Shown: piece by piece, positions 10,550 through 48,513 of the stretch
Layout: the number at the start of each line of letters is the position of its first letter
Numbering within the stretch: the stretch's first letter is position 1
Assembly (NCBI GenBank): GCA_035544875.1
Contig: DASZZP010000038.1
Location: 192,185 to 256,184, forward strand
Source: Thermoanaerobaculia bacterium
GTDB lineage: Bacteria; Acidobacteriota; Thermoanaerobaculia; Multivoradales; UBA5704
Direction: 5' to 3'
DNA length: 64,000 nt
The notes under the pieces: model-generated
Told to the model about the DNA's origin: nothing
Databases searched by the model: none
What the model saw: only the letters and a program-made list of their open reading frames with translations
Position numbers and translations under genes: made by a program

Positions 10550-10551
10550 GT

Positions 10552-23908: not shown

Positions 23909-24274
23909 ATGCGGGTTCCTCTCTCTTGGATATAGCACAATCTCGATCGAAGTGAAGAAATCATAGCATAGCTGGGAGCAAGAAGGCAAGGTTAGCCGTT
24001 TCTGGTTGTCGAGTGGCCGGCCGCCGCCGGGGTTGCTCGTTGCGCGTCCGACGGCCAGGAAAACCGCCGCCCCTATGCTCGCCTCACCGGTGGCGCTGGC
24101 GTGCCTCGGCACGTCCGAGGGGATGAAGCCCACCGAGGCGCTTGCCATGGTCGCCGGCTACGGCGAGGGTTATCCGCACAAGTGGCCGCCGCCGCGAGGG
24201 CTCGCGGTGTCAGGGCGAGGCGCTATTCGATCGAAAGGCGGCTCCGGCCCGCCCGAACCGGCGGTCGGTCAGGG

Positions 24275-28738: not shown

Positions 28739-29559
28739 AGCCCGTCTCGCAGCTCGAGCCGGCGCGCGCAGCGGGCGGCGAGCGGACGACTATGGGTGGC
28801 GATGACCAGCATCGTCCCTTCCTGCCGCTGCAGCTCGAAGAGCAGCTCGGTGGCCGCCTCGGCCGTGGCGTGGTCGAGGCTGCCGGTCGGCTCGTCGCAC
28901 AGCAGCAGCGCCGGCCGGTGCAGCAGGGCGCGGGCGATGGCGGCGCGCTGGCGCTCGCCGCCCGACAGCTCGGCCGGCCGGTGGCGCAGGCGATCGGCGA
29001 GCCCGACCCGCGCCAGCAGCTCCTCGGCCCGCGGCCGCGCGCTCCCCCAGCGGCGCTGAAAGGCCAGCGCGGGCAACAAGACGTTCTCGAGCACCGAGTA
29101 CTGGGGCAGCAGATAGTGGTCCTGGAAGACGAAGCCGATGCGCTCGTTGCGCAGCCGCGCCAGGACCCGCTCGGGCAGCGTGTAGAGGTCGCGGCCGGCG
29201 AGCGTCACCGTGCCGCCGGTCGGCCGCTCGAGGGTCCCCAGGATGTGCAGCAGCGTGCTCTTTCCCGACCCCGACGGCCCGATGATGGCGAGCGTCTCCC
29301 CCGCCGCCAGGCGGAAGCCGACGCCGCGCAGCACCGGCAGCTCCCGTCCTCCCAGGGTGAAGCTCTTGCGCAGCTCGTGGACGGTCAGCAGGCGGGCCGG
29401 CTCCGGCTGGCGATTGCCGGAGCCAGTGGACTCGGCCGACTCGCCCGGATCGCCTGGATCTCCGGAGCCCGCGTGCTCGCCGGGACCGCCGGCAACGGCG
29501 GCCGCGGCAGGCTCGGCGGCGGCGCCGGTTGTGGAGTCGCCAGGTGCGCCGGGCGCCAT
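28723..29559 (-). CDS. ABC transporter ATP-binding protein (MacB/LolD-like)
   Basis: Walker A GPSGSGKST, Q-loop, signature LSGGERQRAAIARAL, Walker B LLLCDEPT. ATG at 29559 lies 2 nt after the GT4 stop. Confidence 0.85.
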   Translation of the reverse strand: MAPGAPGDSTTGAAAEPAAAAVAGGPGEHAGSGDPGDPGESAESTGSGNRQPEPARLLTVHELRKSFTLGGRELPVLRGVGFRLAAGETLAIIGPSGSGKSTLLHILGTLERPTGGTVTLAGRDLYTLPERVLARLRNERIGFVFQDHYLLPQYSVLENVLLPALAFQRRWGSARPRAEELLARVGLADRLRHRPAELSGGERQRAAIARALLHRPALLLCDEPTGSLDHATAEAATELLFELQRQEGTMLVIATHSRPLAARCARRLELRDGLCFAA

Positions 29560-32568: not shown

Positions 32569-32816
32569 CGGCGCTCTCCCTGCTCTCGTTCATCGCGCGC
32601 CGCCGGCAGCGCGCCCTCGCCCCAGGGTGGCCAGGCGAAAACGACCAGCAGCCCGAGCAGCGCCGAGGCCGCGACGCAGAAGCCGATGTGATAGAGCAGG
32701 CCGGCCGGCAGGCCGAGCCACAGCCGGCGGTCGTTCCACAACCAGAGATCGTTGTGCAGCAGGTAGAGCACCGCGAGCGCGCTGTAGAGCAGCGCGGCCC
32801 ATCCACGGCGTCTCAT
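32565..32816 (-). CDS. DUF3311-like small membrane protein partnered with the SSS transporter
   Basis: 83 aa, two TM helices, LYLLHNDLWLWND motif. Canonical partner gene immediately upstream of SSS permeases. Confidence 0.6.
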   Translation of the reverse strand: MRRRGWAALLYSALAVLYLLHNDLWLWNDRRLWLGLPAGLLYHIGFCVAASALLGLLVVFAWPPWGEGALPAARDEREQGERR

Positions 32817-34171
32817 GTCCGGTCTCCCGTGACGGCGTTGCTGGCGAGGGCGAGGCCCCCTTCGGCCGGCGCCGCATCCGTAGCCGCCGGCGCGTCGGGC
32901 ACGGCGGTCGCGGCCAGCGCCGCGAACAGGCGCGAGAAATCGTGATCGAAGACGTCGCCGCGCAACACCCGAATGAGGTCCAGGCGGCAGTCGGGGAAGC
33001 GGCGGATGAATTTCGAAAAGCGGAAGTTCGGATCGTAGAAGGTGTAGACCAGGCGGCGCATGGCGTCCATACCGGCACTGAAGCGCGGCCCGAAAGCGCC
33101 GAGGCGGGCGGCCGAGAAGTCGCCCGTGGCGAGCGCGCCCAGGATCGCGTCGGCGGCGAACTCGCCCGAGCTGAAGGCGAGCAGCACTCCAGAGGAGTAG
33201 ATCGGGTCGAGGAAGCCGAAGGCGTCGCCGACCAGCACCCAGCCGTCGCCGGCGATCTGGCGCGAGCGGTAGGAGAAGTCGCGGGTGGCGAGGAAATCCA
33301 TCACCCGCCGCGCCCCGGCCAGGCGCGGCTGCAGCGGCGGGCAGCGTGCCACCTCCTCGTCGAACACCCGCTGCAGGTCGCCGCCGCGGCCGGTGACCAG
33401 GTACTCGACCGAGCCGACGACGCCGACGCTCACCCGGTCGTGCGGCAGCGGGATGTACCAGAACCACGACTCCTGCTGCTCGGTGTGCAGCACCAGCGTG
33501 GCCCCCTCGTCGATCCCGGGGTCGCGCAGGGCGCCCTCGAAGTGGGAGAAGATGGCGGCCTTCTTGAGCCGCGGATCGATCTCGCGCAGACCCAGGCGGC
33601 GCCCCAGCACCGCGCTCTGGCCTGTCGCGTCCACCACCACCTTGGCGGCGAGCTCGCGGCGGCCCTCGCCCGGCAGGTCGGCGAGGACGCCGGCCGCCCG
33701 CTCGCCGGCAAAGAGCACCTCGCGCACAGTGGCTCCCTGGCGCACTTCGACGCCGTGGTCGCGCGCGTTTTCGAGCAGCAGGCGATCGAAGTCGCGGCGC
33801 GGCACCTGCCAAGTGATCGAGCCCTCGCCCGGGTCGGTCTCCTGGAAATAGAAGGGGGCCGAGGCGCGGCCGCTCTTGGAGTAGAACTGAACGCTGTACT
33901 TGCGCGGGAACGGGCTGGCGTAGAGCCGCTCGAGCAGGCCGAGCCGGGCGAAGGTGCGGTAGGTCTCCGGCATCAGCGACTCGCCGATCTTGAACCCGGT
34001 TTCGGGCAGGCGCTCGAGCAGCGCCACCCGATGGCCGGCATCCGCGACCAGGGTGGCGACGGTCGACCCGGCAGGTCCGCCGCCCATCACGATGACGTCA
34101 TAGTCCGGGGAGTCCGCGCTCGGCGCTCTCGCCACTCTCGGCGCTCTCGCCACTCTCAGCGCTCTCAGCAT
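32813..34171 (-). CDS. FAD-dependent oxidoreductase of the flavin-dependent halogenase / geranylgeranyl-reductase fold
   Basis: DVIVMGGGPAGSTVATLVADAGHRVALLER (GxGxxG Rossmann motif) ...FKIGESLMPETY...GDAFGFLDPIYSSG. A 21-nt tandem repeat at the 5' end encodes ARAPRVARAP. Confidence 0.65.
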   Translation of the reverse strand: MLRALRVARAPRVARAPSADSPDYDVIVMGGGPAGSTVATLVADAGHRVALLERLPETGFKIGESLMPETYRTFARLGLLERLYASPFPRKYSVQFYSKSGRASAPFYFQETDPGEGSITWQVPRRDFDRLLLENARDHGVEVRQGATVREVLFAGERAAGVLADLPGEGRRELAAKVVVDATGQSAVLGRRLGLREIDPRLKKAAIFSHFEGALRDPGIDEGATLVLHTEQQESWFWYIPLPHDRVSVGVVGSVEYLVTGRGGDLQRVFDEEVARCPPLQPRLAGARRVMDFLATRDFSYRSRQIAGDGWVLVGDAFGFLDPIYSSGVLLAFSSGEFAADAILGALATGDFSAARLGAFGPRFSAGMDAMRRLVYTFYDPNFRFSKFIRRFPDCRLDLIRVLRGDVFDHDFSRLFAALAATAVPDAPAATDAAPAEGGLALASNAVTGDRT

Positions 34172-34187: not shown

Positions 34188-36365
34188 TCAAGGCTGCCTC
34201 GGGGCCGGCGCCTGGGGGGCGAGGCTGGGCGCGGTCCAGCGCGCCTCGAACCCGGCGTAGACCGCCCGCCCGCTGGCCGGAATGACCGAGGTGGTGCCGA
34301 GCCCGCGCGTGTAAGTGCGCTCGCCGGTCAAGTTCTTGACCTCGATCCTGCCCCGCAGCGGTCCGAGCGGCAGCGACAGGGCGGCGTCGGCGGTGAAGGC
34401 GCCGGGAATGGCGAAGGCGTCGTCGGCCGCGATGAACTGCCGCGACACGTAGCGTCCGCCGGCGGCGAGCTCGAGGCCGCCCGGCAGGCGGCGGGTGAGC
34501 CACAGGTTGGCGATGTGGGCCGGCGCCAGCGGCGGCGTCTTGCCGCTGCGGTCGATGGTGGCGAAGGTGGGCGGCGCGAAGCTGACCAGCACGCTCTCGG
34601 CAAAGCGGGTGAAGACGGCGCGGTCGTAGGCGTAGCTGAACACCACGTCGAGGCCCGCCAGCCGGTGCGCCACCAGCTCGAGCTCGACGCCGCGCGAGCG
34701 CTCGCTGCCGCTCTGCTCGGTGAAGCCGTTGGCATCCGGGATCGCCTGGTTCCGGCGCCGCAGATCGTAGACCGCGAGCGTGCCGCGCAGCCGGCCGCCC
34801 AGCAGCTCGCTCTTGAGCCCCGCCTCGGCCTGGGTGCCGGTCTCCGGCCGGCGCGGCCCGGCGACGCGGGTCGAGGGCGGCGCGAAGCCGCGCCCGGCGT
34901 TGGCGTAGATCGACCAGCCGGCGGCCGGCGAGAAGACGGCGCCGGCCATCGGCGAGAGCTGCGAGTCGCGCCGCGCGGTCGCCGTCGCCCGGTCGCGGTA
35001 GTCGAGATGGTCGAAGCGCCCGCCGAGCAGCAGCTGGAAGCGCTCCGACACCAGCACGCGGTCGAGCACGTAGGGAGCGGCGATCAGCATCCGCGTGTTG
35101 GCGGCCGCCGACTGCCCGGGCAGGGGAACCACCGGGCGCCGCGCCGTCTCCACCGGCGCCAGCAGGTCGATCGGCGGCAGCCCTCCGACGTCGAGCGTGA
35201 AGTTGTCGCCGCGGCGCGCCAGCTCGACTCCGGCCATGAGTTGGTGGGTGAGGCGGCCGGTCCTGGCCTCGACGCTCCCCTCGAGCTGGTTGCCCCAGAA
35301 GCGCTGCCGGTCGTCGAGCAGCACCAGCGCGCGCGCCAGCTCGAGGCGGCCAGTGAAATCGGGAAAAACGCCGGCGAGCAGGGTGCCGTCCGACCGCCAG
35401 GAGAGCTCCCTGTAGTACGCCTTGTCGTGCAGGGTGAAGCCGCCGGCCTTGCCCTGCCAGTCGAGCTGCAACCGGCTGAGCCGCTGGTCCGAGCGATCGA
35501 ACGGCGACTGGTAGGAGCGGCGGACGGGGACGCCGGCGACCCGGTTGCCCACCAGCGGCAGCCCGGCGTCGGGGTGGAAGGAATCCTCGACCCGCTCGAC
35601 GCTCAGGATCAGCGAGCTGTCGGCGTCGCGGCGCCAGGCGAAGGTGGGATTGGCGCCCCAGGCGCGGCCGGAGCGGCCGTCGCGCCAGCCGTCGGTCGCC
35701 TGCCAGAGGCCGTTGAGGCGCAATCCGAGCCGTCCGTCCTGGCCGCTCCAGTTGCCGTCGACGGCGCCCTGGCGGGTGCCGAAGGAGCCGCCCAGCCCCG
35801 ACAGCTGCACGAAGGGATCGGACAGCGGCTGCTTGCGCACGATGTTGACCGCGCCGGCAAGCGGGTTGCCGCCGTAGAGAAAGCTCGCCGGCCCCTTGAG
35901 CAGCTCGACCCGCTCGGCGTTGTAGAGCTGGTAGAAGGTGGTCACCGGCTCGGGCGCGCCGTCGGTCATCACCAGGGCGCTGGTCTCCGAGTCGAGGCCG
36001 CGCACCACGAACAGGTCGGCCACCCCGGATTCGGTGTGAACGCCCACGCCGCTGGCGTTCTTGAGCGCGTCCCCGAGCACCCGCGCGTCCTGCTGCTCGA
36101 GCAGCGGCGCGCCGATCACGTCGACGCTCGCCGGCAGCAGCCGGGTGGGGAGCGGCAGCCGGGCGATCGCGGTGACCGCCGGCACCAGCTCCGCGGTCTC
36201 CTTGACCACCAGCTCCTCGTGATGTTGCAGCAGCGGCGGCCCGGCGGCGGGCTCTTGCGGCGCCGCGGCGGCGGCGGGCGCCTGCGCCGGTCCGCCAGAC
36301 GCCTGGGCCAGCACGGCCGGAGGGCAGGCGGCGAGCACGGCGGTCGCCACGATGGCCAGGGCCAT
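34188..36365 (-). CDS. TonB-dependent outer-membrane receptor
   Basis: Signal peptide MALAIVATAVLAACPPAVLAQA, plug domain (...ERVELLKGPASFLYGGNPLAGAVNIV), 22-strand barrel ending in the aromatic-rich terminal strand ...GFEARW. Confidence 0.85.
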   Translation of the reverse strand: MALAIVATAVLAACPPAVLAQASGGPAQAPAAAAAPQEPAAGPPLLQHHEELVVKETAELVPAVTAIARLPLPTRLLPASVDVIGAPLLEQQDARVLGDALKNASGVGVHTESGVADLFVVRGLDSETSALVMTDGAPEPVTTFYQLYNAERVELLKGPASFLYGGNPLAGAVNIVRKQPLSDPFVQLSGLGGSFGTRQGAVDGNWSGQDGRLGLRLNGLWQATDGWRDGRSGRAWGANPTFAWRRDADSSLILSVERVEDSFHPDAGLPLVGNRVAGVPVRRSYQSPFDRSDQRLSRLQLDWQGKAGGFTLHDKAYYRELSWRSDGTLLAGVFPDFTGRLELARALVLLDDRQRFWGNQLEGSVEARTGRLTHQLMAGVELARRGDNFTLDVGGLPPIDLLAPVETARRPVVPLPGQSAAANTRMLIAAPYVLDRVLVSERFQLLLGGRFDHLDYRDRATATARRDSQLSPMAGAVFSPAAGWSIYANAGRGFAPPSTRVAGPRRPETGTQAEAGLKSELLGGRLRGTLAVYDLRRRNQAIPDANGFTEQSGSERSRGVELELVAHRLAGLDVVFSYAYDRAVFTRFAESVLVSFAPPTFATIDRSGKTPPLAPAHIANLWLTRRLPGGLELAAGGRYVSRQFIAADDAFAIPGAFTADAALSLPLGPLRGRIEVKNLTGERTYTRGLGTTSVIPASGRAVYAGFEARWTAPSLAPQAPAPRQP

Positions 36366-36394: not shown

Positions 36395-37759
36395 TCAAGG
36401 CCGGGCCGCGGCGACGTCGTAGGCCGCCATCGCCTCGCGGTTGCGCAGGAAGAGCTTGCCGCCAGCCAGGCTCGGCCCGGTCCAGCAGCGGCCGGAGAGC
36501 GGCTGGAAGCTCCCCCGCTCGTGGTAGGCCTCCGGGGCGGCGTCGGCCAGCACCAGCTTGCCGCTCTCCGAAAGCACCAGCAGAAGGCCGTCGGCGAGGA
36601 TCACCGAGCCGTGGCCGAGCCCGCGCTCCTTCCAGCGCTCCTCCCCGTTCTGCGCCTTGATGCACTTGAAGGTGCCGTTGTCGAAGCCGTAGAGATAGTC
36701 GCCGGCGAGCACCGACGAGCTGAACTGATTCTTGAGCCCGCGGCTCTTCCACAGTGGCTCGGCAGTCATCTGGCGGGCGTCGCCGCGGATCTGGAAGAGC
36801 GCCGAGCCGGTGTCGTAGCCGGATGAGACAAAGAGTTTGTCGGGGGCCACGAAGAGCGGCGTCGCCGCGTTGACGTCGTAGCTGGTCTCCCAGGGAACCC
36901 GCCAGAGCAGACGCCCGTCCGCCACCGCGAGGCCGGAGACGTACCCGCCGGTGAAGAAGATCGCCTGGCGCACCCCGGCGGCGGTGAGAGCAATAGGGGA
37001 GGCGTAGCCCGGCCGGTCGTCGAGCGCCTTCCACACCACCCGCCCGCTGTGCTTGTCGAACGCCATCGCCGCGCGGCCGCCGCTGCCGCCGGCCGCCACC
37101 AGCAGCAGGTCGCCTTCGACCAGCGGCGAGCTGGAGCTGCCCCAGGTCGGCATCTGGGCTCCGAACTCCTGCGCCAGGTCGTGGCTCCACTCGACCTTGC
37201 CGCTCGCTGCCGCCACGGCGAGCAACTTGCCCTGGGCGCTCTGGACGTAAAGATTGCCATCGTCGAAAGTGGGCGTCGAGCGCGGGCCGTTGCCCTGATC
37301 GTTCATCAGCTCCGAGTCGGTGCGCCGCACCCATAGCTGGTGCCCGTTGGCGGCGTCGTAGGCCGCCAGGTTCTCGGCGTTGTTCGCGCCATACAGCGTG
37401 AAGATGCGCCCGCCGGCGACCGTCAGATGCGAGTAGCCCTCGCCGATCGGCACCTGCCAGAGCTGCCGCGGGCCGCCGGCCGGCCAGCTGTGCAGCAGGT
37501 GCGCCTGGGGCGCGATACCGTCGCGGTGCGGGCCGCGAAACTGCGGCCATTCGCTGCCCGCGGCAGTCGCCGCAGTCGCGGCGCTCGCGCTGCTTGCGTT
37601 GTTCGCAGCAGGGGCGGCGCCGGAGGTTGCCGCGGCGGCGAGGAGCACCGCCGCCATCGCTCCGAGCAGGACCGGAGCGGGCCGCAGCTTCCGCCGGTCG
37701 GTGAGCGCAGTGAGCAGGGTACGGCGGGGAACGGCTGCACGGTGTCTGTTGATGGTCAT
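36395..37759 (-). CDS. Secreted PQQ-like beta-propeller repeat protein 1 (BamB-like)
   Basis: Tat-like signal NRHRAAVPRRTLLTAL. Repeated ...G.lyal...tG..lW motifs (AYDAANGHQLWV, AVAAASGKVEW, AFDKHSGRVVWK, ...). Start assigned to the ATG at 37759 (RBS GGGAGG); the track start 37798 has no RBS. Confidence 0.7.
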   Translation of the reverse strand: MTINRHRAAVPRRTLLTALTDRRKLRPAPVLLGAMAAVLLAAAATSGAAPAANNASSASAATAATAAGSEWPQFRGPHRDGIAPQAHLLHSWPAGGPRQLWQVPIGEGYSHLTVAGGRIFTLYGANNAENLAAYDAANGHQLWVRRTDSELMNDQGNGPRSTPTFDDGNLYVQSAQGKLLAVAAASGKVEWSHDLAQEFGAQMPTWGSSSSPLVEGDLLLVAAGGSGGRAAMAFDKHSGRVVWKALDDRPGYASPIALTAAGVRQAIFFTGGYVSGLAVADGRLLWRVPWETSYDVNAATPLFVAPDKLFVSSGYDTGSALFQIRGDARQMTAEPLWKSRGLKNQFSSSVLAGDYLYGFDNGTFKCIKAQNGEERWKERGLGHGSVILADGLLLVLSESGKLVLADAAPEAYHERGSFQPLSGRCWTGPSLAGGKLFLRNREAMAAYDVAAARP

Positions 37760-37781
37760 GGTGGTCGGCCCTCCCTGGCGG

Positions 37782-39149
37782 TTAGGTGTAGCGCGCATTG
37801 CGGTAACGCTCGTCGTAGAGCTCGGGCAACAGCTGATCGACGCGCAGCAGCCCGGCGTGGGTGAGCTCGATGCGGTCGGCGAACGGCTGCAGCATGCCGC
37901 GCTGCCGCAGCCGCTCCCAGGCCGGCGCGAACTCGGCGCGCACGTCGACCCCGAACTTGTCCTGGAAATAGGCGCCGTCGAGCCGCCCGAGCTTGAGCTG
38001 CAACGCCGCCTCGCGGGTCAGCAGCTCGTGCGGGCTCGGCACCAGGCCACGCTCGAGCGGCAGCCGGCCGCCCTCCACCGCCCCCAGGTAGTCGCTCCAG
38101 GTGGCGGTGTTCTGGAAGTGGCAGCCGTTGACGTGCGAGAACGACGAGATGCCGGTGCCGAGCATGTCACAGCCGTGCCAGACGGCGTCGCGATAGACGA
38201 AGCGGCAGCTCTTGTCGCGGCGCACCAGGGTGTAGGCGCTCGACTGCTCGTAGCCGGCGGCGGTGAGCTGCTCGAAGGCGTATTCCTGCCAGGCGCGCCG
38301 GGTCTGCCAGCCGGCGAAGGTCATCGCCGGGGAGTCGAGCGAGCCGCCCAGCACGCTCTTCGAGAAATCCGTGTTGTAGGGCAGCTCGAGCTGATAGATG
38401 GTGACGCTGTCCGGCGCCAGGTCGAGCGTCTTCTTGACCGTCTCGCGCCACGCCGGCCACGACTCGCCGAGCATGCCGGCGATCAGGTCGATGTTGAGCT
38501 GATCGAACGCCAGCTCCTTGATCCACGGCATCACCCGGTAGATCTCCGCCGAGAGATGGGCCCGTCCGTTGGCGCTCAGGATCTCGTCGTCGAAGTTCTC
38601 GACGCCCAGCGACAGGCGGGTGACGCCGAAGGCGCGGACCGCCTCGAGCTTGGAGCGGGTCAGGGTGCCGGGCTCGCACTCGAAGGTCACTTCCTCGACG
38701 CCGTCCCACGGCATGACGCGGCGCATCCGCTCGACCAGGCCGGTCAGCTGGCGCACGCTGAGCAGCGACGGCGTGCCGCCGCCGAAATAGACGAAGCGCA
38801 GCGGGCGGCCGGCGGTCGCGGGCAGCTCGCCATAGTGCTCGATCTCCCTGCCGAGCGCCTCCAGGTAGCGGTTGATGGCTGCGCTGTCCATCTCGGTGAA
38901 GACCCGGAAATAGCAGAACTTGCAGCGCTTACGGCAGAAAGGCAGGTGCAGGTAGAGGCCGAAATCGGTGCCCGGGCGCGGCGGGGAGGCGAGCGCCGCC
39001 TCGACGCGCGGCAACTCCTCGCCGCTCCAGAACGAGAACGGCGGATAGTTGGCCACGAACAGGTTGCCCACCGGGGGCGGATCGGCCAGCAGCGAGGAGG
39101 CGAGCTCAGCGCCCTCCTGCCTCCGTGCTGGACTCGCGGGCTCGATCAT
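37782..39149 (-). CDS. HemN/HemW-like radical SAM enzyme (class C radical SAM family)
   Basis: LYLHLPFCRKRCKFCYF (CxxxCxxC) ...YFGGGTPSLL... plus the HemN C-terminal domain. ATG at 39149 overlaps the upstream stop (ATGA). Confidence 0.8.
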   Translation of the reverse strand: MIEPASPARRQEGAELASSLLADPPPVGNLFVANYPPFSFWSGEELPRVEAALASPPRPGTDFGLYLHLPFCRKRCKFCYFRVFTEMDSAAINRYLEALGREIEHYGELPATAGRPLRFVYFGGGTPSLLSVRQLTGLVERMRRVMPWDGVEEVTFECEPGTLTRSKLEAVRAFGVTRLSLGVENFDDEILSANGRAHLSAEIYRVMPWIKELAFDQLNIDLIAGMLGESWPAWRETVKKTLDLAPDSVTIYQLELPYNTDFSKSVLGGSLDSPAMTFAGWQTRRAWQEYAFEQLTAAGYEQSSAYTLVRRDKSCRFVYRDAVWHGCDMLGTGISSFSHVNGCHFQNTATWSDYLGAVEGGRLPLERGLVPSPHELLTREAALQLKLGRLDGAYFQDKFGVDVRAEFAPAWERLRQRGMLQPFADRIELTHAGLLRVDQLLPELYDERYRNARYT

Positions 39150-40378
39150 GATGCGCCGTCTCCCTTTCCCGGTCTCGCCGCAAAGCAGTAGAGCGTGCCG
39201 TCGAGCGTGCCGACCACCAGCCGGCCGCCGGCGATCGCCGGCGAGGCCTCGATCGCCGCGCCGGCGGCGAACTGCCAGACCGGCTTGCCGGTGCGGTCGT
39301 CGAGGGCGAAGATGTCGCCGCTGCGCGCCGCCGCGACCGCGAGGCCACCGACCAGCACGGGCGAGGAGTCGACCGCGGCGCGGGCGGCGAAGGTCCAGAG
39401 CTCCTCGCCGGTGCGCGGCGACAGCGCGTGCACCAGCTTATCGCGGCCGCCCACCACCAGCAGGTCGTCGCGCACCGCCGCTGAGGAGTAGTACGGAAAC
39501 TTGAGCCGCGAGTTCTCGTAGCGCCACGCCACCCTGCCGGAACGCAGGTCGACCGCCACCAGCTGGTTCTCGAAAGTGCCGACGAACGCCCGCCCCAGGG
39601 CGACCGCCGGGCTGGCGCCGAGATAGCCGCCGAGGGCGACCTTCCAGACCTCGGCGCCGTTGCGCGCCCGCAGCCGCCGCAGGTTGCCGTCGCAGCCGGC
39701 GATCAGCACCGCGTCGCCTGAGACCGCGGGCGTGGCATTGACGTAGCCCCCGGTCTCCCGGCTCCAGCGCCGCGCGCCGTCGGCCGCGGACAGGCAGTAG
39801 ACGCTGCGGTCGTAGGAGCCGAAGAGCACGCAGCCGGCGGCAAAATTGGCCGCCGAGACGATCTCGGCGCCGGTGCGGAAGCTCCAGCGGCGCCGCCCGG
39901 TGGCGGCGTCGATGGCGTGGAAGACTCCATGCCCGTCGCCGAAGTAGACGACGCCGTCGCGCACCGCCGGCGAGGAGCGAATAGGACCCTCGGCGCGATA
40001 CTTGAAACGCAGCGCGCCGCTGTCCAGGCTGAGGGCGTATAGATTGCCGTCGAGCGAACCGACGTAGGCGCTGCCGTGCCAGATCGCCGCCGTCGAGGCG
40101 ATGCCGGCGCCCGCCTTGAACGTCCACACGGGGGCGAGCTCCCGGCCGAGAGCGCCAGCGGCGCGCCCGGTGAGCTCGGGATCGCCGCGGAACAGGGCCC
40201 AGGCGGCGCCGGCCGCCTCGCCCGCTGCTTTGCCTGCCGCTGTGCAAGCCGCCTTGCCTGCCGTTTTGGAAGACGCTTTGCCTCCAACACCCGCCGCGGC
40301 ATCGACCCCTGTCGCCGCCAGCCGCAGGCAGGCCAGCGCGAGCAGCGCGGCGGTTGCGGGACGTGGGCGAGGTCGCAT
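39146..40378 (-). CDS. Secreted PQQ-like beta-propeller repeat protein 2
   Basis: Signal peptide MRPRPRPATAALLALACLRLAATG. Repeats ...GNLYALSLDSGALRFKY, VFHAIDAATGRRRWSF, VYCLSAADGARRWS, LVAVDLRSGRVAWRY, IFALDDRTGKPVWQF. Confidence 0.75.
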   Translation of the reverse strand: MRPRPRPATAALLALACLRLAATGVDAAAGVGGKASSKTAGKAACTAAGKAAGEAAGAAWALFRGDPELTGRAAGALGRELAPVWTFKAGAGIASTAAIWHGSAYVGSLDGNLYALSLDSGALRFKYRAEGPIRSSPAVRDGVVYFGDGHGVFHAIDAATGRRRWSFRTGAEIVSAANFAAGCVLFGSYDRSVYCLSAADGARRWSRETGGYVNATPAVSGDAVLIAGCDGNLRRLRARNGAEVWKVALGGYLGASPAVALGRAFVGTFENQLVAVDLRSGRVAWRYENSRLKFPYYSSAAVRDDLLVVGGRDKLVHALSPRTGEELWTFAARAAVDSSPVLVGGLAVAAARSGDIFALDDRTGKPVWQFAAGAAIEASPAIAGGRLVVGTLDGTLYCFAARPGKGDGAS

Positions 40379-40422
40379 GGCGCAATGGGTCTGGCGTGCG
40401 GGTCTTGCCGTCGTCACGGGAT

Positions 40423-41727
40423 TCAGTAGGCCTGCTGGTAGAGCCACAGCAAATCGGCTTCGCCGACCAGCCGCGGGTTGAAGCGGGCGGTCCACTGCCG
40501 CGCCGCCTCGCACGCCAGCTCCTCCAGGGCCGCCGCCTCGACGCCGACCTCGCGCAGGCGCGCCGGTAGACCGGCGGCGGCGCGCAGCGCCTCGATCCTC
40601 GCCGCCAGCTCCTCTCCCCCGGCGTATGGGCCGAGCCCGGGGTAGCCGCCGGTGTCTAGAGTCGGCGGAGTCGGCGGAGTCGGGGGAGTCGGCGGTGTCA
40701 GAGTCGTGGCCGGCGGCCGGGCGCTGTTGAAGCGCACCACGTGCGGCAGCAGCAGGGCGACCGCGGCGCCGTGCACGATGCCGTAGCGGGCGGTGAGCGG
40801 GTTGGCGCAGGCGTGCGCCGCCCCCAGCATCGAGACCTCGATTGCCGCGCCGGCGAGATGGGCGCCGAGCAGCATGGCGCCGCTGGCGCCGGCATCCTCC
40901 GGCGCCGCGAACGCGCGCTCGAGGCTCGGCTCGAGCAGCCGCCAGGCCTCGCGCGACAGCATCCGCGACACCGGGTTGGCGCGCCGGCATACCAGACTCT
41001 CGACGGCATGCGAGAGGGCGTCGAGCCCGGCTGCCGCCGCCACCCGGCGCGGTGCGCTCCCGACCAAGGCCGGATCCAGGACCACGATGCGGAAACGCGC
41101 CTTGCGGTCGCCGCAGGCCATCTTCTGGTGGCTCTCCTCCTGCGAGATCAGGGCGTAGGACTGCGCCTCGCTGCCGGTGCCGGCAGTGGTGGGAACGCCG
41201 ATCGCCGGCAGCATCGGCCGCCGGGCGCGGCCAAAGCCCTGGTAGTCCTCCATGCGGCCGCCGTTGGTGAGCAGGAAGTTGATCCCCTTGGCGCAGTCCA
41301 TGGCGCTGCCGCCGCCGAGGCCCACCAGCAGGTCGGCGCCCCACTCTGCTGCGGCGTCGCGGCCGGCCTCCACCTGCCGCGTCGTGGGGTTCTCGCCCAC
41401 CCCGTCGAAGACCCGCGCCGCCACCTCCGCCGCGCCCAGGACGACCGCGGCGCGCTCGACGTGGCCCGCGGCGCGCACCCCGGGGTCGCTGACCAGCAGC
41501 GCACGGCGGCCGCCGAGCTCGCGCGCCAGCTCGCCCAGGGCCGCCACCGCGCCGTGGCCGAAGAGCACGTCGATGCCGCCCACCTCGGCCCGCCACTCGG
41601 CTGCCCGCCACTCCGCCGCCGCGGGCGGCGTCCGGGAGCCGGGATCGGTGCTGGGTTCGCTGGCTGCGCCGGCGTCGCTGGCGCCGCCGGCTCCACTGGC
41701 TACGCTGCCTCTGAACACCGCGCTCAT
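40423..41727 (-). CDS. Iron-containing (group III) alcohol dehydrogenase
   Basis: ...LVGLGGGSAMDCAKGINFLL...GVPTTAGTGSE...LDALSHAVES... Contains an inserted PPTPPTPPTPPT stretch from a 9-nt tandem DNA repeat. ATG at 41727 overlaps the LuxC-like stop (ATGA). Confidence 0.8.
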   Translation of the reverse strand: MSAVFRGSVASGAGGASDAGAASEPSTDPGSRTPPAAAEWRAAEWRAEVGGIDVLFGHGAVAALGELARELGGRRALLVSDPGVRAAGHVERAAVVLGAAEVAARVFDGVGENPTTRQVEAGRDAAAEWGADLLVGLGGGSAMDCAKGINFLLTNGGRMEDYQGFGRARRPMLPAIGVPTTAGTGSEAQSYALISQEESHQKMACGDRKARFRIVVLDPALVGSAPRRVAAAAGLDALSHAVESLVCRRANPVSRMLSREAWRLLEPSLERAFAAPEDAGASGAMLLGAHLAGAAIEVSMLGAAHACANPLTARYGIVHGAAVALLLPHVVRFNSARPPATTLTPPTPPTPPTPPTLDTGGYPGLGPYAGGEELAARIEALRAAAGLPARLREVGVEAAALEELACEAARQWTARFNPRLVGEADLLWLYQQAY

Positions 41728-43361
41728 CGGCCCTCGCCCTCCGGCGCCGACACGAGCGCCGGCGGCTGAGGCAGCGGCGCCGGGGGCGCCGCCAGGCCGG
41801 GGCCCAGGCCGGCCACGCGCAGCGCGCGGCGGCGGTAGAGCAGGTCGAAGAGGTTGCCTTCGTGCGGCTGGGCAAAGGAGACCTGCCAGGTCGGCACGGC
41901 GCCCAGGTGCAGGTGATCGACGTCGCGGCAGGCGAGCAGCTCGCCGCGCAGCTCCTCGTCCGCGGTCAGGACGGTCGCCACTAGCGTCGGACCGAGGCGC
42001 GCCGGCAGCTCGGCGCGCGGTACTTCGACCACCGCGCCGAACGGGAAGAGCAGCTCGGCGCGGGCCAGCGGGTGGTCGGCATCGCGCACCCAGATCAGGG
42101 TCGGCAGCAAGAAGGTGCAGCCGTCGACCTCAACCACGCGCCCGCCACTCCGATCGCCGCGCGCCGCGGCGGTCAGGTCTTCGGCCTCCCCCGGGGCCAG
42201 CCGGCGATCGATCCACTCCGAGATGCGGCGCGCCGCCGCGGGGTCGGGCCACGCCGCCAGCTCTGCGCGCGGGTCGTCGAGCGGACGCGCCTCGACCGCG
42301 GCCAGGCGCCGCGCCAGCGCCTCGGCGAATTCGCGCGCCGGCGTGGAGCGGCCACCGCGCGCCGGGCCGGCGCCGCTGGCGGCCTGGGCGCCGTCAACGG
42401 CTTCCAGCCAGACCCCCGAGGCGTTGATGCACGAGCGGCCGCCATTGGCGAGCAGCGAGCTCGCCACCAGCTCGAGGTGGGAAGGCCACTCGGCGAGCTG
42501 GTCGGCACCCATGATCACCTTGCTGAAACCCGGCCCATGGACCTCGATCCGCCGGTCGCCGCGCCACGGGCTGACCGTCGCCGCGTCGCCAAATAGCAGC
42601 GAGCGGCCGCAGCGCAGCAGGATCTCGGCGGCGCCGGCGTGGTCGGTGGGATAGAACGAGAGCGCCGCCGGCGGGCAGCCCGCCGCCGCCAGGGCGCGCA
42701 GCAGGCGCAGTGGGGTCCAGGGCTCGTCGCGCCCCGGCTTGAGCGCCAACCCGACACCCAGCGCCGGCGCGGCCAGCCACAGCCCATGCACCCCCGGCGA
42801 GTTGCTCGGCAGCACGGCGCCCAGGGTGTCGGCGAGGCGCTGGAAGTGCGCGCCGCCGGCGTCGCGCTCCGGAGCCGAGGAATCGAGGGCGGCGGCCGGC
42901 AGGCCGCGCGTCAGCCCGGCAACCACCTCTTCCATCCCGGCGAGCGTGGCGCGCAGCTTCTCGAGGTTGGCGCGCGCCAGGGTCAGCGGCAGGCCGGTGG
43001 TGGCCGAGACGTCGCGCAGGTAGTCGGCGGGCGCCTGCGTCTCGCCGTCAAAGCCGACCGCCAGCTCGCCTTCGGCGAACAGCGCCGCCGCCCGGCGGCA
43101 GATCGCCAGCCGCTCGCCGAGCGGCAGCGCACCCAGGGGCGCCGCCAGCCGGCTCTCGCGGCTCTCGGGTACGCGCGCCGCCGCGGCGGCCGGAGCAAGG
43201 CTCGCGCCCAGATCGCGGGCGATCAGGGCGGCATTGGCCTGGCTCACCTCGGCCACCAGCTCGCCGCTGCGCAGATCGCGCAGCCGCGCCACCTCGGCGC
43301 TGCGATAGGCGGCGCCGCCGCGCAGCACCGGCAGGTGCAAGGCCACCGGCCGCCGCGCCAT
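41724..43361 (-). CDS. LuxC-like acyl-CoA reductase / aldehyde-dehydrogenase-superfamily protein
   Basis: ...LPSNSPGVHGLWLAAPALGVGLALKPGRDEP... and the catalytic region ...LANGGRSCINASGVW (conserved Cys). 545 aa. ATG at 43361 overlaps the stop of the adenylating-enzyme gene (ATGA). Confidence 0.55.
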   Translation of the reverse strand: MARRPVALHLPVLRGGAAYRSAEVARLRDLRSGELVAEVSQANAALIARDLGASLAPAAAAARVPESRESRLAAPLGALPLGERLAICRRAAALFAEGELAVGFDGETQAPADYLRDVSATTGLPLTLARANLEKLRATLAGMEEVVAGLTRGLPAAALDSSAPERDAGGAHFQRLADTLGAVLPSNSPGVHGLWLAAPALGVGLALKPGRDEPWTPLRLLRALAAAGCPPAALSFYPTDHAGAAEILLRCGRSLLFGDAATVSPWRGDRRIEVHGPGFSKVIMGADQLAEWPSHLELVASSLLANGGRSCINASGVWLEAVDGAQAASGAGPARGGRSTPAREFAEALARRLAAVEARPLDDPRAELAAWPDPAAARRISEWIDRRLAPGEAEDLTAAARGDRSGGRVVEVDGCTFLLPTLIWVRDADHPLARAELLFPFGAVVEVPRAELPARLGPTLVATVLTADEELRGELLACRDVDHLHLGAVPTWQVSFAQPHEGNLFDLLYRRRALRVAGLGPGLAAPPAPLPQPPALVSAPEGEGR

Positions 43362-44502
43362 CAGTACACCCCGACCACCACCGAGCTGGCGAGCGCCTCG
43401 AGCAGGCGCACGTTGCGCACCCCGTCCCACGGGAACCCGGCGACCGGGGCGGCGCGCTCGGCCTGGTCGCGCTCGAGGAAGCGCGGCATGAAAAACTCGC
43501 GCGTCAGGGTGGTGAGCATCACCTGTCCGGTTTCGCCGTACTCCACCCGCCGCTCGGGATCGTCGGGATCCACCAGCTCGAGCACGGCGCGCGGTTGCGG
43601 CGCGTAGTAGGTGATGGCCCAGCGCGACTCGGGCGGCTCGGGCGACTCGGAGACGCCGCCGCCGGCGCCGTCCGCCGCGCCCGCCCCCCCGGGGGCGGGA
43701 CAGGCGAGCCCCATCAACGTGTTGCCGTAGACCGGGTAGAAGACGACGCCCGGGATCAGCTCCTCGCGCGCGAAGCGGTGGAACTGCGGGCTCATCTCGG
43801 TGCCGCCGCAGAAGACGCCGCGGATGCCCAGCCGCGGCAGCGCGACCCGCTCGGCAAGCGCGGCGAGCAGCTTCGGCGTGGTGAACAGGCAGCGGATGCT
43901 CTCGTGCGCCCGCAGCAGCTTGAGCCCCTGCTCGACGACGTGGCGCTTGTAGGCCTCGAGCTCCCGCGGCCGGCCGTCCCTGATCAGCTCGTTGACCCAG
44001 CGCGGATCGAGGTCGACCAGGAAGCAGATGCCGCCGCGGTGCTGGGCCAGGTGCTCGATCGCCAGGCGCAAGCGGCGCGGCCCGGTCGGCCCCAGCATCA
44101 GCCAGTCGGCGCCGCGCGGGAAGCCGTCCTCCGGGAGGCGCTCGCTCAGCTGCTCGTAGTCGATGCGGAAGTCCTCGATGTTGATGCGCGACTTCGGCAG
44201 GCCGGTCGAGCCGCCGGTCTCGAACACCGCGATCGGGCGGTCGGCCAGGGCGCGCGGCACCCAGCGCCGGATCGGACCGCCGCGCAGCCACTCGTCCTCG
44301 AAGTGGCCCAGCCGCCGCAGGTCGTCGTAGCCGCCGATCTCGCGCCGCGGATCGAAGTCGAGGCGTCGGGCGTAGTCGAGCCAGAACGGCGAGCCGGTCG
44401 CGGGGTCGAAGTGCCAGCGCACGACCTCGCGCACGTGCTCGTCGAGCCGCTCGCGGGCAGCCCTCACCGCCGCGGCCAACGAGCTCTCGAGGATGGCGGT
44501 CA
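43361..44502 (-). CDS. LuxE/PaaK-like adenylate-forming enzyme (acyl-protein synthetase / phenylacetate-CoA-ligase fold)
   Basis: AMP-binding P-loop FETGGSTGLPKSR, ...VFCGGTEMSP..., about 380 aa. No in-frame ATG is available, so a TTG start at 44502 (RBS GGAGAG) is proposed. Start is uncertain. Confidence 0.5.
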
Positions 44503-44577
44503 AGATCTTCTCTCCGGCGTCGTAGCCCGCTCGTCCTGCCCGCTCGTCCTGCCCGGTCGTCCTGCCAAGAGCCTCCG

Positions 44578-48484: not shown

Positions 48485-48513
48485 CGTTCGAGTCCTCACC
48501 GCCAGTGCTGATC

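What the first reader, a model, noticed from the sequence alone, without database searches (positions are those of the whole stretch)
37782..39149. HemN-like radical SAM enzyme in a non-heme context, candidate class C radical SAM methyltransferase
Seen in sequence: CxxxCxxC plus the HemN C-terminal domain are intact. There are no neighbouring heme-biosynthesis genes. The gene is sandwiched, with start/stop overlaps, between two secreted propeller genes.

Established knowledge: stand-alone HemN paralogs inside biosynthetic clusters frequently act as C-methyltransferases or cyclopropanases rather than coproporphyrinogen oxidases.
Basis: partly seen in the sequence, partly recalled or inferred. 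Interest (0 to 1): 0.5.

Follow-up and report, generated by a model that had tools for sequence, protein, structure and literature searches.

The report
Orphan HemN-like enzyme in halogenase operon
The gene is a real, intact radical-SAM enzyme of the HemN type, but it is neither the heme enzyme HemN nor the heme chaperone HemW: it belongs to an uncharacterised subfamily found in several bacterial phyla, always inside the same operon, which probably modifies and exports a small halogenated aromatic compound.

Summary
Window 37782-39149 (-) encodes a 455-aa HemN-fold radical SAM protein (CRKRCKFC, GGGTP, HemN_C). No heme genes occur anywhere in the 64 kb, and secreted beta-propeller genes flank it.

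It scores below every curated cut-off (ChuW/HutW, STM4012, HemN, HemZ, HemW). It lacks HemN's fourth Cys and RNFQGY loop, and HemW's CxHNxxYW. It sits in its own clade, marked by CxxxCxxCY[YF], FxYRDxxWHG and a C-terminal ...ARYT. All residues that hold the second SAM in NocN/HemN are conserved.

At least 575 species genomes carry orthologs (Acidobacteriota, Planctomycetota, Poribacteria, Latescibacteria). The neighbourhood is syntenic:
- an EhpF-like adenylase
- an Aldedh-fold reductase-like protein
- an Fe-ADH
- a secreted propeller
- this enzyme
- often a flavin halogenase, GT4, transporter and MacB-type ABC exporter

Natural fusions (Fe-ADH::HemN-like, ANL::HemN-like) confirm the coupling.

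Most likely it performs two-SAM, class-C-type chemistry on an aromatic acid/aldehyde/alcohol intermediate. A 2026 preprint noticed similar "Halo_AMP" clusters without assigning a function.

The parts
37782..39149 (-). G7: HemN-like radical SAM enzyme (455 aa), the finding. Motifs: NYPPFSFW (34-41), CRKRCKFCYF (72-81), GGGTPS (123-128), E157, R178, E184, R196, D221, T250, FVYRDAVWHG (317-326), C-terminal ARYT.
39146..40417 (-). G6: secreted PQQ_2 / Beta-prop_ACSF4 beta-propeller (423 aa). Its stop overlaps the G7 start (ATGA). It is the most constant neighbour of G7 across phyla.
40423..41727 (-). G5: iron-containing (group III) alcohol dehydrogenase (434 aa). Found fused to the HemN-like domain in P0122.
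41724..43361 (-). G4: divergent aldehyde-dehydrogenase-fold protein (545 aa). Has Cys311, Asn187 and Lys208, but His275 in place of the general-base Glu. Proposed EhpG-like acyl reductase.
43361..44503 (-). G3: EhpF-like adenylating enzyme (380 aa), an ANL family member that lacks the C-terminal domain.
44578..46233 (-). G2: secreted PQQ_2 beta-propeller (551 aa).
46238..48568 (-). G1: secreted PQQ_2 beta-propeller (776 aa), first gene of the operon.
36395..37798 (-). G8: secreted PQQ_2 beta-propeller (467 aa; an alternative start at 37759 gives 454 aa). Present mainly in Acidobacteriota.
34188..36365 (-). G9: TonB-dependent receptor, siderophore-type (TIGR01783, 241 bits, above its cut-off of 223.5). 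Present in Acidobacteriota and Multivoradales clusters, absent from Planctomycetota clusters.
32813..34171 (-). G10: flavin-dependent halogenase (452 aa). Motifs: GGGPAG, FKIGES Lys61, WFWYIP at 236.
32565..32816 (-). Small membrane ORF (83 aa) in the position of the DUF3311 gene of orthologous clusters. ATGA overlaps on both sides.
   Evidence: no Pfam/NCBIfam hit of its own
30991..32568 (-). G11: sodium:solute symporter family transporter (525 aa). Replaced by an MFS transporter in Gemmataceae clusters.
29562..30983 (-). G12: GT4 glycosyltransferase (473 aa).
28723..29559 (-). G13: ABC ATPase of the LolD/MacB/DevA type (278 aa).
24911..28738 (-). G14: large FtsX/MacB-type permease (1275 aa).
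24275..24850 (-). G15: small polytopic membrane protein (191 aa, no family hit). Conserved at the end of several orthologous clusters.

Best explanation
G7 is a catalytically competent, cytoplasmic HemN-fold radical SAM enzyme that binds two SAM molecules. It belongs to a distinct, uncharacterised subfamily.

It is one step of a conserved, co-transcribed pathway of about 24 kb that tailors a small aromatic carboxylic acid. The proposed steps are:
1. G3 (EhpF-like) adenylates the acid.
2. G4 (Aldedh fold without the hydrolytic Glu) reduces the acyl group to an aldehyde.
3. G5 (Fe-ADH) interconverts aldehyde and alcohol.
4. G10 halogenates the ring.
5. G7 uses the 5'-deoxyadenosyl radical from SAM-I to make a methylene radical on SAM-II. 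That radical adds a C1 unit to an sp2 carbon of the intermediate (class-C-type C-methylation or a related C1 transfer such as hydroxymethyl or cyclopropane formation).
6. G12 glycosylates, and the MacB/DevA-type ABC system exports the product to the periplasm. There the secreted propellers, and in Acidobacteria a TonB-dependent receptor, handle it.

**Shown:** fold, motifs, conserved SAM-I and SAM-II residues, synteny, fusions, and the identity of the partners.

**Inferred:** the order of steps, the aromatic nature of the substrate, and C1 transfer as the reaction outcome.
For: **Not any known equivalog.** ChuW/HutW 179 bits (cut-off 400), STM4012 176 (380), HemN 173 (325), HemZ 145 (321), HemW 140 (205).

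**Full HemN architecture.** 1OLT E=4.7e-30, TM 0.76-0.79 over 428 columns.

**Active site.** The cluster ligands, GGGTP, and the SAM-I residues R196 and D221 are invariant. So are the SAM-II residues Y66, Y121, R178, D221 and T250 (residue roles from PMC12871812).

**Separate clade.** It has its own motifs and excludes E. coli HemN, HemW, ChuW and the NocN fragment.

**Operon.** Gene spacing runs from -17 to +74 nt.

**Synteny.** The same gene order is found at ~65% identity in three complete-length genomes, and the core G2-G7 block is found across phyla. In full-flank loci G5, G6, G10 and G12 accompany G7 in 12/12 Acidobacteriota.

**Fusions.** Fe-ADH::HemN-like (P0122, 50% identical to G7) lies inside the same cluster type. 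ANL::HemN-like fusions occur in the sister clade, one of them next to an aromatic ammonia-lyase.

**Partners.**
- G3 family vs EhpF: E=3e-56, full length.
- G4: Cys, Asn and Lys kept, general-base Glu replaced by His.
- G10: top PDB hits are halogenases (8zop 5e-64, PltA 6e-59, then 5buk, ChlB4, CmlS), with WxWxIP in 21/21 orthologs.

**Precedent.** Characterised class C enzymes act on sp2 carbons of aromatic or heteroaromatic natural-product intermediates (PMC12871812, PMC10114718). CoeI installs a C1 unit on an anthraquinone that ends up as a hydroxymethyl group (PMC9714029).
Against: - No activity data exist, and two bound SAMs are also used by HemN for H-abstraction without methyl transfer.
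- The family keeps a HemN-like N-terminal segment (NYPPFSFW vs HemN YTSYPTALEF) that NocN and HemW lack (PMC12871812).
- The cluster has no scaffold-forming enzyme, so the substrate is unknown.
- In Poribacteria only G4-G7 are clustered, among housekeeping genes, and in many Planctomycetota G7 stands alone within +/-10 kb.
- The halogenase catalytic Lys is replaced by His, Arg or Cys in 7/22 orthologs, so halogenation is not universal.
- The role of four secreted propellers is unexplained.
- Characterised class C enzymes other than ChuW and a NocN fragment could not be included in the tree, and the tree is neighbour-joining without bootstrap.
Confidence: 0.45

Rival explanations
1. HemN-type chemistry without C1 transfer. 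The SAM-II methylene radical abstracts a hydrogen from a side chain of the intermediate (for example the beta-carbon of an aryl- or pyrrolyl-propionate). This causes oxidative decarboxylation to a vinyl group, or another H-abstraction-initiated rearrangement.
For: HemN is the best full-length structural and sequence match in the PDB. A HemN-like N-terminal 'trip-wire'-type segment is retained. The pathway partners all act on a carboxylate or its reduced forms. Two SAMs are equally required for this chemistry (PMC10114718).
Against: HemN's fourth Cys and the RNFQGY loop (F310/Q311) are absent. The Tyr before GGGTP (Y121) matches the methylases NocN and ChuW, where HemN has His. The TIGR00538 score is about half its cut-off.
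Confidence: 0.2
2. Protein maturase. G7, possibly together with the flavoprotein G10, modifies a residue of the translationally coupled secreted propeller G6 (or of the other propellers) before export. This would create a protein-derived cofactor for these PQQ-like but PQQ-less propellers, by analogy with the QhpD/QhpG or anSME systems.
For: G6 is the most constant neighbour of G7, with a conserved ATGA overlap. G10 also matches QhpG, LodB and GoxB maturase models below their cut-offs. The propellers match Haft's 'acido-empty-quinoprotein' model weakly.
Against: G7 is fused to an Fe-ADH or to ANL adenylases, not to propellers. In the fusion locus L087 no propeller lies next to the rSAM. G10 has the halogenase-specific WxWxIP and Lys motifs. 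The adenylase, reductase, ADH, GT4 and transporters all point to a small molecule. No RRE or peptide-binding domain was detected.
Confidence: 0.1
3. One reading: a lipid-modifying class C methyltransferase or cyclopropanase acting on a fatty-acid- or isoprenoid-derived intermediate (a fatty acid reduced to an alcohol and glycosylated).
For: An acid-to-aldehyde-to-alcohol module plus a GT4 and a DevA-like exporter could make an alkyl glycoside. Jaw5 is a HemN-like enzyme acting on a polyketide chain (PMC13459092).
Against: There are no LuxC/LuxE, FAS/PKS, ACP or isoprenoid genes in the operon. The adenylase is EhpF-type, whose known substrate is an aromatic dicarboxylate. The flavoprotein is a pyrrole/phenol-type halogenase rather than a geranylgeranyl reductase.
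Confidence: 0.07
4. ChuW/HutW-like anaerobic heme (or other tetrapyrrole) degradation, coupled to uptake through the adjacent TonB-dependent receptor.
For: ChuW/HutW is nominally the top NCBIfam hit (179 bits). A TonB-dependent receptor lies two genes downstream. The host class includes anaerobes.
Against: The score is under half the cut-off. The receptor passes the siderophore-type model and scores only 58-62 bits on the heme-receptor models. There are no ChuS/T/U/V/X/Y homologs. The receptor is absent from all 18 Planctomycetota loci, while G4-G7 persist. ChuW falls outside the clade.
Confidence: 0.05
5. HemW-like heme chaperone.
For: It is a member of the HemN-like superfamily lacking HemN's fourth Cys, like HemW.
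Against: It has no CxHNxxYW motif (FVYRDAVWH instead). It has an N-terminal extension that HemW lacks. TIGR00539 scores 140 against a cut-off of 205. It lies outside the HemW clade. It sits in a tightly conserved biosynthetic-type operon.
Confidence: 0.03

Closest known systems
E. coli HemN / CgdH (PDB 1OLT), oxygen-independent coproporphyrinogen III dehydrogenase
   Same: Same overall three-part architecture: N-terminal segment, radical SAM (beta/alpha)6 core and HemN_C domain. TM 0.76-0.79. Same CxxxCxxC, GGGTP, Y56/H58, E145, R184 and D209 equivalents, and a two-SAM site.
   Different: Only 24-26% identical. No fourth Cys (F81). The RNFQGY loop is deleted. Q172 is replaced by E184. It has its own FxYRDxxWHG motif and ARYT tail. 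No heme genes nearby. Below the TIGR00538 cut-off.
Class C radical SAM methylases (NosN/NocN 9P2U, ChuW/HutW, TbtI, C10P/YtkT, Jaw5, CoeI)
   Same: HemN-like fold. All NocN SAM-II contacts are conserved, including the Tyr before GGGTP, which is shared with NocN and ChuW. Located in a tailoring operon next to enzymes that act on aromatic acids. YtkT also co-occurs with a PaaK-like ligase (YtkN) according to the Halo_AMP preprint.
   Different: About 25% identical to ChuW and about 30% to the NocN core. Falls in a different clade. Has an N-terminal extension that NocN lacks. NocN's substrate-contact residue R230 is Glu here. No activity is known.
HemW / RSAD1 heme chaperones
   Same: HemN-like fold without the fourth Cys.
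   Different: Lacks the defining CxHNxxYW motif. It is about 75 residues longer, with an N-terminal domain. Different clade and different context.
EhpF/EhpG step of D-alanylgriseoluteic acid (phenazine) biosynthesis
   Same: G3 is a full-length EhpF homolog (E=3e-56) that likewise lacks the ANL C-terminal domain. It is followed directly by an Aldedh-fold gene, as ehpF-ehpG are. Griseoluteic acid carries a hydroxymethyl group where PDC has a carboxylate (PMC3175449), matching an acid-to-aldehyde-to-alcohol route.
   Different: No phenazine core genes are present, so the substrate must differ. Direct homology of G4 to EhpG could not be tested because no EhpG sequence was available.
'Halo_AMP' gene-cluster pseudoclass from sponge metagenomes (Loureiro et al., bioRxiv 10.64898/2026.08.03.742642)
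   Same: Same ingredient list: flavin halogenase (best hit Bmp2), stand-alone adenylase, frequent PQQ-like domains, rSAM, GT, thioesterase, ABC and TonB-dependent transporters. Same phyla (Acidobacteriota, Latescibacterota, Poribacteria). Their rSAMs cluster with no characterised enzyme.
   Different: Their focal family (CC A) has P450s, which are absent here. Their detection rule requires the two core genes to be close together, and here they are 9 kb apart. They did not identify the rSAM as HemN-like, did not note the non-sponge (soil and freshwater Gemmataceae/Acidobacteriota) distribution, and did not note the Fe-ADH/Aldedh core.

Membership tests
Radical SAM superfamily | CxxxCxxC cluster motif plus GGGTP-type SAM loop in a partial TIM barrel | tested here: met
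   C72/C76/C79 and G123-P127 are invariant. Pfam PF04055 72.7 bits against a cut-off of 29.5. The model matches radical SAM cores.
HemN-like clan (fold level) | Radical SAM core followed by the HemN C-terminal domain | tested here: met
   PF06969 25.2 bits against a cut-off of 24. Full-length match to 1OLT, TM 0.76-0.79.
HemN / CgdH (coproporphyrinogen dehydrogenase) | Reaches the curated TIGR00538 score | tested here: not met
   172.6 bits against a cut-off of 324.95.
HemN / CgdH (coproporphyrinogen dehydrogenase) | Fourth cysteine (CX3CX2CXC) and the RNFQGY loop carrying F310/Q311 | tested here: not met
   F81 occupies the position of HemN C71. The 10-residue loop is absent from all family members.
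HemN / CgdH (coproporphyrinogen dehydrogenase) | Heme-biosynthetic genomic or physiological context | tested here: not met
   No tetrapyrrole genes in the 64 kb or in the orthologous loci.
HemW heme chaperone | CxHNxxYW motif replacing the SAM-II site (PMC13495026), and the TIGR00539 score | tested here: not met
   The sequence is FVYRDAVWH. TIGR00539 scores 139.5 against a cut-off of 205.4. It lies outside the clade that holds E. coli HemW and the motif-bearing representatives.
ChuW/HutW anaerobic heme-degrading methyltransferase | TIGR04107 score and a chu/hut heme-uptake operon context | tested here: not met
   179.3 bits against a cut-off of 400. 24% identical to E. coli ChuW and in a separate branch. 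No ChuS/T/U/V/X/Y genes. The receptor is siderophore-type.
Class C radical SAM methylases (functional class) | [quoted passage not shown] | tested here: met
   By sequence mapping only. NocN Y34, Y96, R153, D196 and S225 correspond to Y66, Y121, R178, D221 and T250, invariant in 30/30 (residues from PMC12871812). HemN shares most of them, so this feature is necessary but not sufficient.
Class C radical SAM methylases (functional class) | Transfer of a SAM-derived C1 unit to an sp2 carbon, with SAH and 5'-dA as co-products | not testable with these tools
   Requires anaerobic reconstitution and the (unknown) substrate.
Class C radical SAM methylases (functional class) | Phylogenetic grouping with a characterised methylase | tested here: inconclusive
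   It does not group with ChuW or the NocN fragment. Sequences of TbtI, C10P, YtkT, Jaw5, CoeI, CloN6 and MenK/MqnK could not be obtained.
Halo_AMP cluster pseudoclass (Loureiro et al. 2026) | Trp_halogenase (PF04820) and AMP-binding (PF00501) hits within the antiSMASH rule distance | tested here: inconclusive
   Both domains are present: PF04820 scores 90 bits, and PF00501 scores 25.6 bits, below Pfam's cut-off of 29.9. They lie 9.2 kb apart in the window, although only about 4 kb apart in L087. The rule's 5-kb cut-off may not be met here.

The most novel reading that the evidence does not exclude
The family founds a new functional branch of the HemN clan. It would be a two-SAM radical enzyme obligatorily coupled to a CoA-independent carboxylate reductase and an Fe-ADH (sometimes fused to them). 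Together with a flavin halogenase and a glycosyltransferase, it would make a so-far unknown halogenated, C1-modified aryl-alcohol glycoside. That product might be a small-molecule ligand or cofactor for the 'empty' PQQ-like periplasmic propellers. The pathway would be widespread in soil, freshwater and sponge Acidobacteriota, Planctomycetota, Poribacteria and Latescibacteria.
Probability: 0.25. Interest if true: 0.75.

Novelty: new variant of a known kind. Interest (0 to 1): 0.55.

Why it matters
HemN-like proteins are routinely mis-annotated as coproporphyrinogen oxidases, and only a handful have known reactions. This one defines a large, sharply conserved clade: at least 575 species genomes, with 50-65% identity between phyla. 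It has its own signature motifs and an invariant set of partners, and natural gene fusions point to the chemistry it is coupled to. If its product is a halogenated metabolite made by abundant but poorly cultured soil and aquatic phyla, it would bear on natural organohalogen production and on the unexplained 'PQQ-like' propellers seen in orphan gene clusters. It also gives radical-SAM enzymologists a defined target for finding a new class-C-type reaction.

Tried and rejected
- **LuxE/LuxC fatty-acid reductase idea for G3/G4.** No Pfam LuxC/LuxE hit even at E<=10. The G3 profile instead hits EhpF.
- **Lipid / brGDGT / membrane-spanning-lipid idea.** A 2026 review of lipid-modifying rSAM enzymes lists only Jaw5 as HemN-like and nothing from Acidobacteria. 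No lipid genes are in the operon.
- **G10 as geranylgeranyl reductase, MenJ or QhpG.** All were below cut-off. PDB hits and motifs show a halogenase.
- **Propellers as true PQQ dehydrogenases.** They match only single blades of PF01011 and reach 44-80 bits on TIGR03075, whose cut-off is 480.
- **Direct test of G4 against EhpG** through the plasmid collection. One weak, partial hit only, so it was uninformative.
- **Reference sequences of characterised class C enzymes.** The supplement of PMC10114718 is not held, and the EhpF structure paper PMC2879354 is not held. What I state about the EhpF/EhpG reaction beyond PMC3175449 is from memory.
- **Riboswitch or other RNA in the operon leader.** No Rfam hits in the window.
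- **Literature search for the cluster as such.** Nothing found apart from the Halo_AMP preprint.
- **NocN (9P2U) in the Foldseek PDB copy.** It did not appear, so the NocN comparison rests on the HMMER alignment.
- **My simple ORF caller on high-GC loci.** It produced spurious antisense ORFs. Synteny statements therefore rest on tblastn and on the database gene calls.
Full report
**1. The observation**

The window is about 72% G+C, so raw ORF lists are full of false ORFs. A GC3 frame plot shows one continuous run of minus-strand genes from 48568 down to 24275.

The ORF 37782-39149 (-) has GC3 of 0.92-0.97 in its own frame. It encodes 455 residues with C72-RKR-C76-KF-C79 and GGGTPS. Pfam finds Radical_SAM (72.7 bits) and HemN_C (25.2 bits against a cut-off of 24). 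The protein is 100% identical to an NCBI entry from a Thermoanaerobaculia (Acidobacteriota) MAG annotated 'coproporphyrinogen-III oxidase family protein'.

An AlphaFold2 model built from 59 homologs is confident (pLDDT 86.3, pTM 0.86; residues 1-32 are disordered). Its only full-length structural match is HemN 1OLT (E=4.7e-30, TM 0.76-0.79 over 428 columns). All other hits cover only the radical-SAM core.

The upstream gene G6 and the downstream gene G8 are PQQ_2/BamB-like propellers. They carry Sec-type signal peptides followed by a conserved (A)DW[PT]xFRG mature N-terminus, in the window and in orthologs.

The G6/G7 junction is a true ATGA overlap. The G7/G8 'overlap' of 17 nt depends on the start chosen: a GGGAGG site precedes a second ATG that would leave a 22-nt gap.

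I scanned about 50 ORFs across the whole 64 kb with Pfam and NCBIfam and found no tetrapyrrole gene.

**2. What the protein is not**

NCBIfam places it below every curated cut-off:

| Model | Bits | Cut-off |
|---|---|---|
| ChuW/HutW | 179 | 400 |
| STM4012 | 176 | 380 |
| HemN | 173 | 325 |
| HemZ | 145 | 321 |
| HemW | 140 | 205 |

I fetched E. coli HemN, HemW and ChuW as references and aligned them with 29 orthologs. G7 is 24-26% identical to each.
- It lacks HemN's fourth cysteine (F81 instead). It also lacks the RNFQGY loop with F310/Q311; HemW and ChuW lack that loop too.
- It lacks the CxHNxxYW motif that defines HemW (PMC13495026). The equivalent stretch is the family-specific F-x-Y-R-D-x-x-W-H-G.
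- Other family-only features are E184 where HemN, HemW and ChuW have Gln, C158, E255, an N-terminal G[NS]xF[VI][AS]NYPPFSFW segment and a nearly invariant C-terminal ...ARYT.
- The N-terminal segment aligns with HemN's YTSYPTALEF 'trip-wire' region, which HemW and NocN do not have.

**3. The second SAM site**

The NocN structure paper (PMC12871812) lists the SAM-II contacts as Tyr34, Tyr96, Arg153, Asp196, Ser225 and a main-chain contact. It lists the SAM-I contacts as the GGGT loop, Cys133, Gly157 and Arg171.

I used the HMMER alignment to NocN and alignment A3 to map these onto G7. They correspond to Y66, Y121, R178, D221, T250, G123-T126, C158, G182 and R196. All are invariant in 30/30 family members.

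Most are shared by HemN and HemW. The discriminating position is Y121: it is Tyr in the methylases NocN and ChuW, His in HemN and Phe in HemW. The two-SAM site therefore appears intact. That is necessary for class C chemistry but does not prove it.

**4. Placement**

An exhaustive phmmer search over 1.84 billion representatives found 28,893 relatives at E<=1e-3. I compared the top 150 with G7 and the three references.
- A core family at >=48% identity carries CRKRC[KH]FCYF, YRDxxW and the ...RYT tail.
- It sits inside a broader clade at 35-42% identity that shares CxxxCxxCY[YF] and often an RY[TSW] tail.
- Genuine HemW representatives (with the motif) appear only at about 31-33% identity and are closer to E. 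coli HemW than to G7.
- No representative is closer to HemN or ChuW than to G7.

A neighbour-joining tree (82 sequences, 418 columns, no bootstrap) gives the same picture. The NocN fragment falls next to the HemW clade, as the literature reports for NosN (PMC10114718).

**5. The neighbourhood is the main result**

Orthologs occur in at least 575 species genomes. These include Thermoanaerobaculia, Vicinamibacteria and other Acidobacteriota; Gemmataceae, Isosphaera and other Planctomycetota; Poribacteria; Latescibacteria; and Multivoradales.

In three genomes of 3.5-8.4 Mb whose protein is only about 65% identical, the gene order is the same as in the window:

propeller, propeller, AMP-binding-like, Aldedh, Fe-ADH, G6 propeller, HemN-like, propeller, TonB-dependent receptor, FAD protein, DUF3311, SSF transporter, GT4, ABC ATPase, FtsX permease.

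The window also has the small DUF3311-position ORF (32565-32816), with ATGA overlaps on both sides. Gene spacing in the window operon is -17 to +74 nt.

tblastn of the 15 window proteins against 83 loci shows the G2-G3-G4-G5-G6-G7 core in Gemmataceae, Multivoradales and others, and G4-G7 in Poribacteria. Co-occurrence with G7 in loci that have full flanks:

| Phylum | Loci | G5 | G6 | G10 | G12 | TonB receptor (G9) |
|---|---|---|---|---|---|---|
| Acidobacteriota | 12 | 12 | 12 | 12 | 12 | 8 |
| Planctomycetota | 18 | 8 | 11 | 2 | 2 | 0 |

In Planctomycetota the cluster is often split, and Gemmataceae use an MFS transporter instead of the SSF.

**6. Identity of the partners**

- **G3.** A profile of 19 G3 orthologs hits EhpF (3hgu/3l2k) at E=3e-56 over its full length. 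EhpF is the ANL-family adenylase without a C-terminal domain from the D-alanylgriseoluteic acid pathway. In that pathway EhpF-O convert phenazine-1,6-dicarboxylate to a product carrying a hydroxymethyl group (PMC3175449). The specific proposal that EhpF and EhpG reduce the carboxylate to an aldehyde is from my memory of Bera et al. 2010, which I could not read.
- **G4.** A profile of 23 G4 orthologs hits aldehyde dehydrogenases (KauB 1e-17). The nucleophile Cys311, Asn187, Lys208 and Glu436 are conserved. The general-base Glu of hydrolytic ALDHs (L-E-A-G-G-K) aligns with an invariant His275. This fits a non-hydrolysing, reductase-type enzyme.
- **G5.** A group III Fe-ADH (150 + 112 bits).
- **G10.** A flavin-dependent halogenase. 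PDB hits are 8zop at 5e-64, PltA at 6e-59, then 5buk, 5bul/5bva, ChlB4 (7fco), 3e1t and CmlS. It has GGGPAG, the Lys in FKIGES, and WFWYIP. WxWxIP is present in 21/21 orthologs. The Lys is replaced by His, Arg or Cys in 7/22, so halogenation may not be universal.
- **G12, G13/G14, G9.** G12 is a GT4 glycosyltransferase. G13/G14 are a LolD/MacB/DevA-type ABC system. G9 passes the TonB siderophore-receptor model.

**7. Fusions**

Among the representatives, P0122 is Fe-ADH::HemN-like (50% identical to G7). It lies in a locus with the same gene set: DUF3311, SSF, MFS, two propellers, EhpF-like, Aldedh, the fusion, FDH, a 4HBT thioesterase, ABC, propeller, GT4, propeller.

P0132 and P0134 are full ANL adenylase::HemN-like fusions from the sister clade, and P0134 sits next to an aromatic ammonia-lyase fragment.

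These fusions independently tie the rSAM to carboxylate-activation and alcohol/aldehyde chemistry on a small, probably aromatic, molecule.

**8. Literature**

No paper describes this protein family.

A bioRxiv preprint of August 2026 (10.64898/2026.08.03.742642) mined sponge metagenomes for clusters with a flavin halogenase plus an AMP-binding enzyme ('Halo_AMP'). It reports frequent PQQ-like domains, rSAM enzymes, GTs, thioesterases, and ABC and TonB-dependent transporters. The clusters come from Acidobacteriota, Latescibacterota and Poribacteria. Their halogenases are most similar to Bmp2, and their rSAMs cluster with no characterised enzyme. No product is known.

This is probably the same broad cluster type. 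However, their focal family has P450s, and they did not recognise the rSAM as HemN-like or the wide non-sponge distribution.

Precedents for class C enzymes acting on aromatic carbons include NosN/NocN, TbtI, C10P/YtkT (PMC10114718, PMC12871812) and CoeI, whose C1 unit ends up as a hydroxymethyl on an anthraquinone (PMC9714029).

**9. Interpretation**

I commit to the following:
- G7 is an active two-SAM HemN-fold enzyme of a new subfamily that acts in the cytoplasm on an intermediate of this pathway.
- The most likely outcome is class-C-type C1 transfer to an sp2 carbon (confidence about 0.45 for the whole statement).
- It is not HemN, HemW or ChuW (about 0.9).
- It is part of a conserved operon (about 0.95).
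- The pathway acts on a small molecule (about 0.65).

The main rival is HemN-type H-abstraction or decarboxylation without C1 transfer (0.2), favoured by the retained HemN-like N-terminal segment. A protein-maturase role toward the coupled propeller (0.1), a lipid substrate (0.07), ChuW-like heme degradation (0.05) and a HemW-like chaperone (0.03) are less likely, for the reasons given under each rival.

Three things remain unexplained: the four secreted propellers, the source of the scaffold, and the stand-alone G4-G7 module among housekeeping genes in Poribacteria.

**10. Verdict**

The finding is real, and more interesting as a family and operon than as a single gene. The enzyme is a new variant within a known superfamily. 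Interest 0.55.

Noticed in passing
window 37782-37796 (C-terminus of G7); all orthologs in alignments A3/A4: The last residues ...(Y)R(N)ARYT are nearly invariant across phyla. RY[TSW] tails recur in the wider CxxxCxxCY[YF] clade, including the ANL fusions. The tail has low model confidence (pLDDT about 54), which suggests a flexible, functionally important C-terminal peptide.
   Followed up: partly
G10 orthologs: L045, L059, L077, L080, L083 (His), L007 (Arg), L039 (Cys): The catalytic Lys of flavin-dependent halogenases (FKIGES in the window) is replaced in 7 of 22 orthologs while WxWxIP is kept. These lineages may have a non-halogenating variant.
   Followed up: partly
L075:7519-10387, L081:11363-11824, L010:12558-13742: In several Planctomycetota the HemN-like gene is followed by a glycine-cleavage-H-like (lipoyl-carrier-type) protein, a 4Fe-4S dicluster protein and a second radical SAM gene. 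I did not establish whether these belong to the same pathway.
   Followed up: partly
window 7901-10978 (-) and 12021-19790 (-): A second MacB_PCD/FtsX permease (1025 aa) and a polysaccharide-type gene set lie downstream of the operon: GT4 at 13463-14776, DegT aminotransferase at 14780-15970, and GT2 plus pyruvyl transferase at 17556-19790.
   Followed up: no
window 58999-59991 (+): A DAHP synthase (first step of aromatic amino-acid synthesis) lies about 10 kb upstream of the operon, beyond leucine-biosynthesis-type genes (Iso_dh, aconitase-family, HMGL/LeuA-dimer; 51461-56203). It could be coincidental, or it could supply aromatic precursors.
   Followed up: no
window 22001-24000: A dip in G+C (0.615 against about 0.72) just past the operon end. 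The ORFs there (22081-22902, 23381-24148) have no Pfam family; the latter has only a weak PorV/PorQ-like hit.
   Followed up: no
window G5 (40423-41727) and G3 (43361-44503): Lineage-specific low-complexity insertions: PPATTLTPPTPPTPPTPPTLDT in the Fe-ADH and GGAGAADGAGGGVSESPEPPES in the adenylase. Both are absent from the consensus of orthologs.
   Followed up: no
L021 (CAZVZK010000049.1): A MAG labelled 'uncultured Alcaligenaceae' carries a 58%-identical G7 with no other operon gene within +/-10 kb. This may be a binning or label error, or a transferred solo copy.
   Followed up: no
window 20226-20756 (-): An ORF with a MazE-antitoxin-like domain lies between the polysaccharide genes and the operon end.
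   Followed up: no
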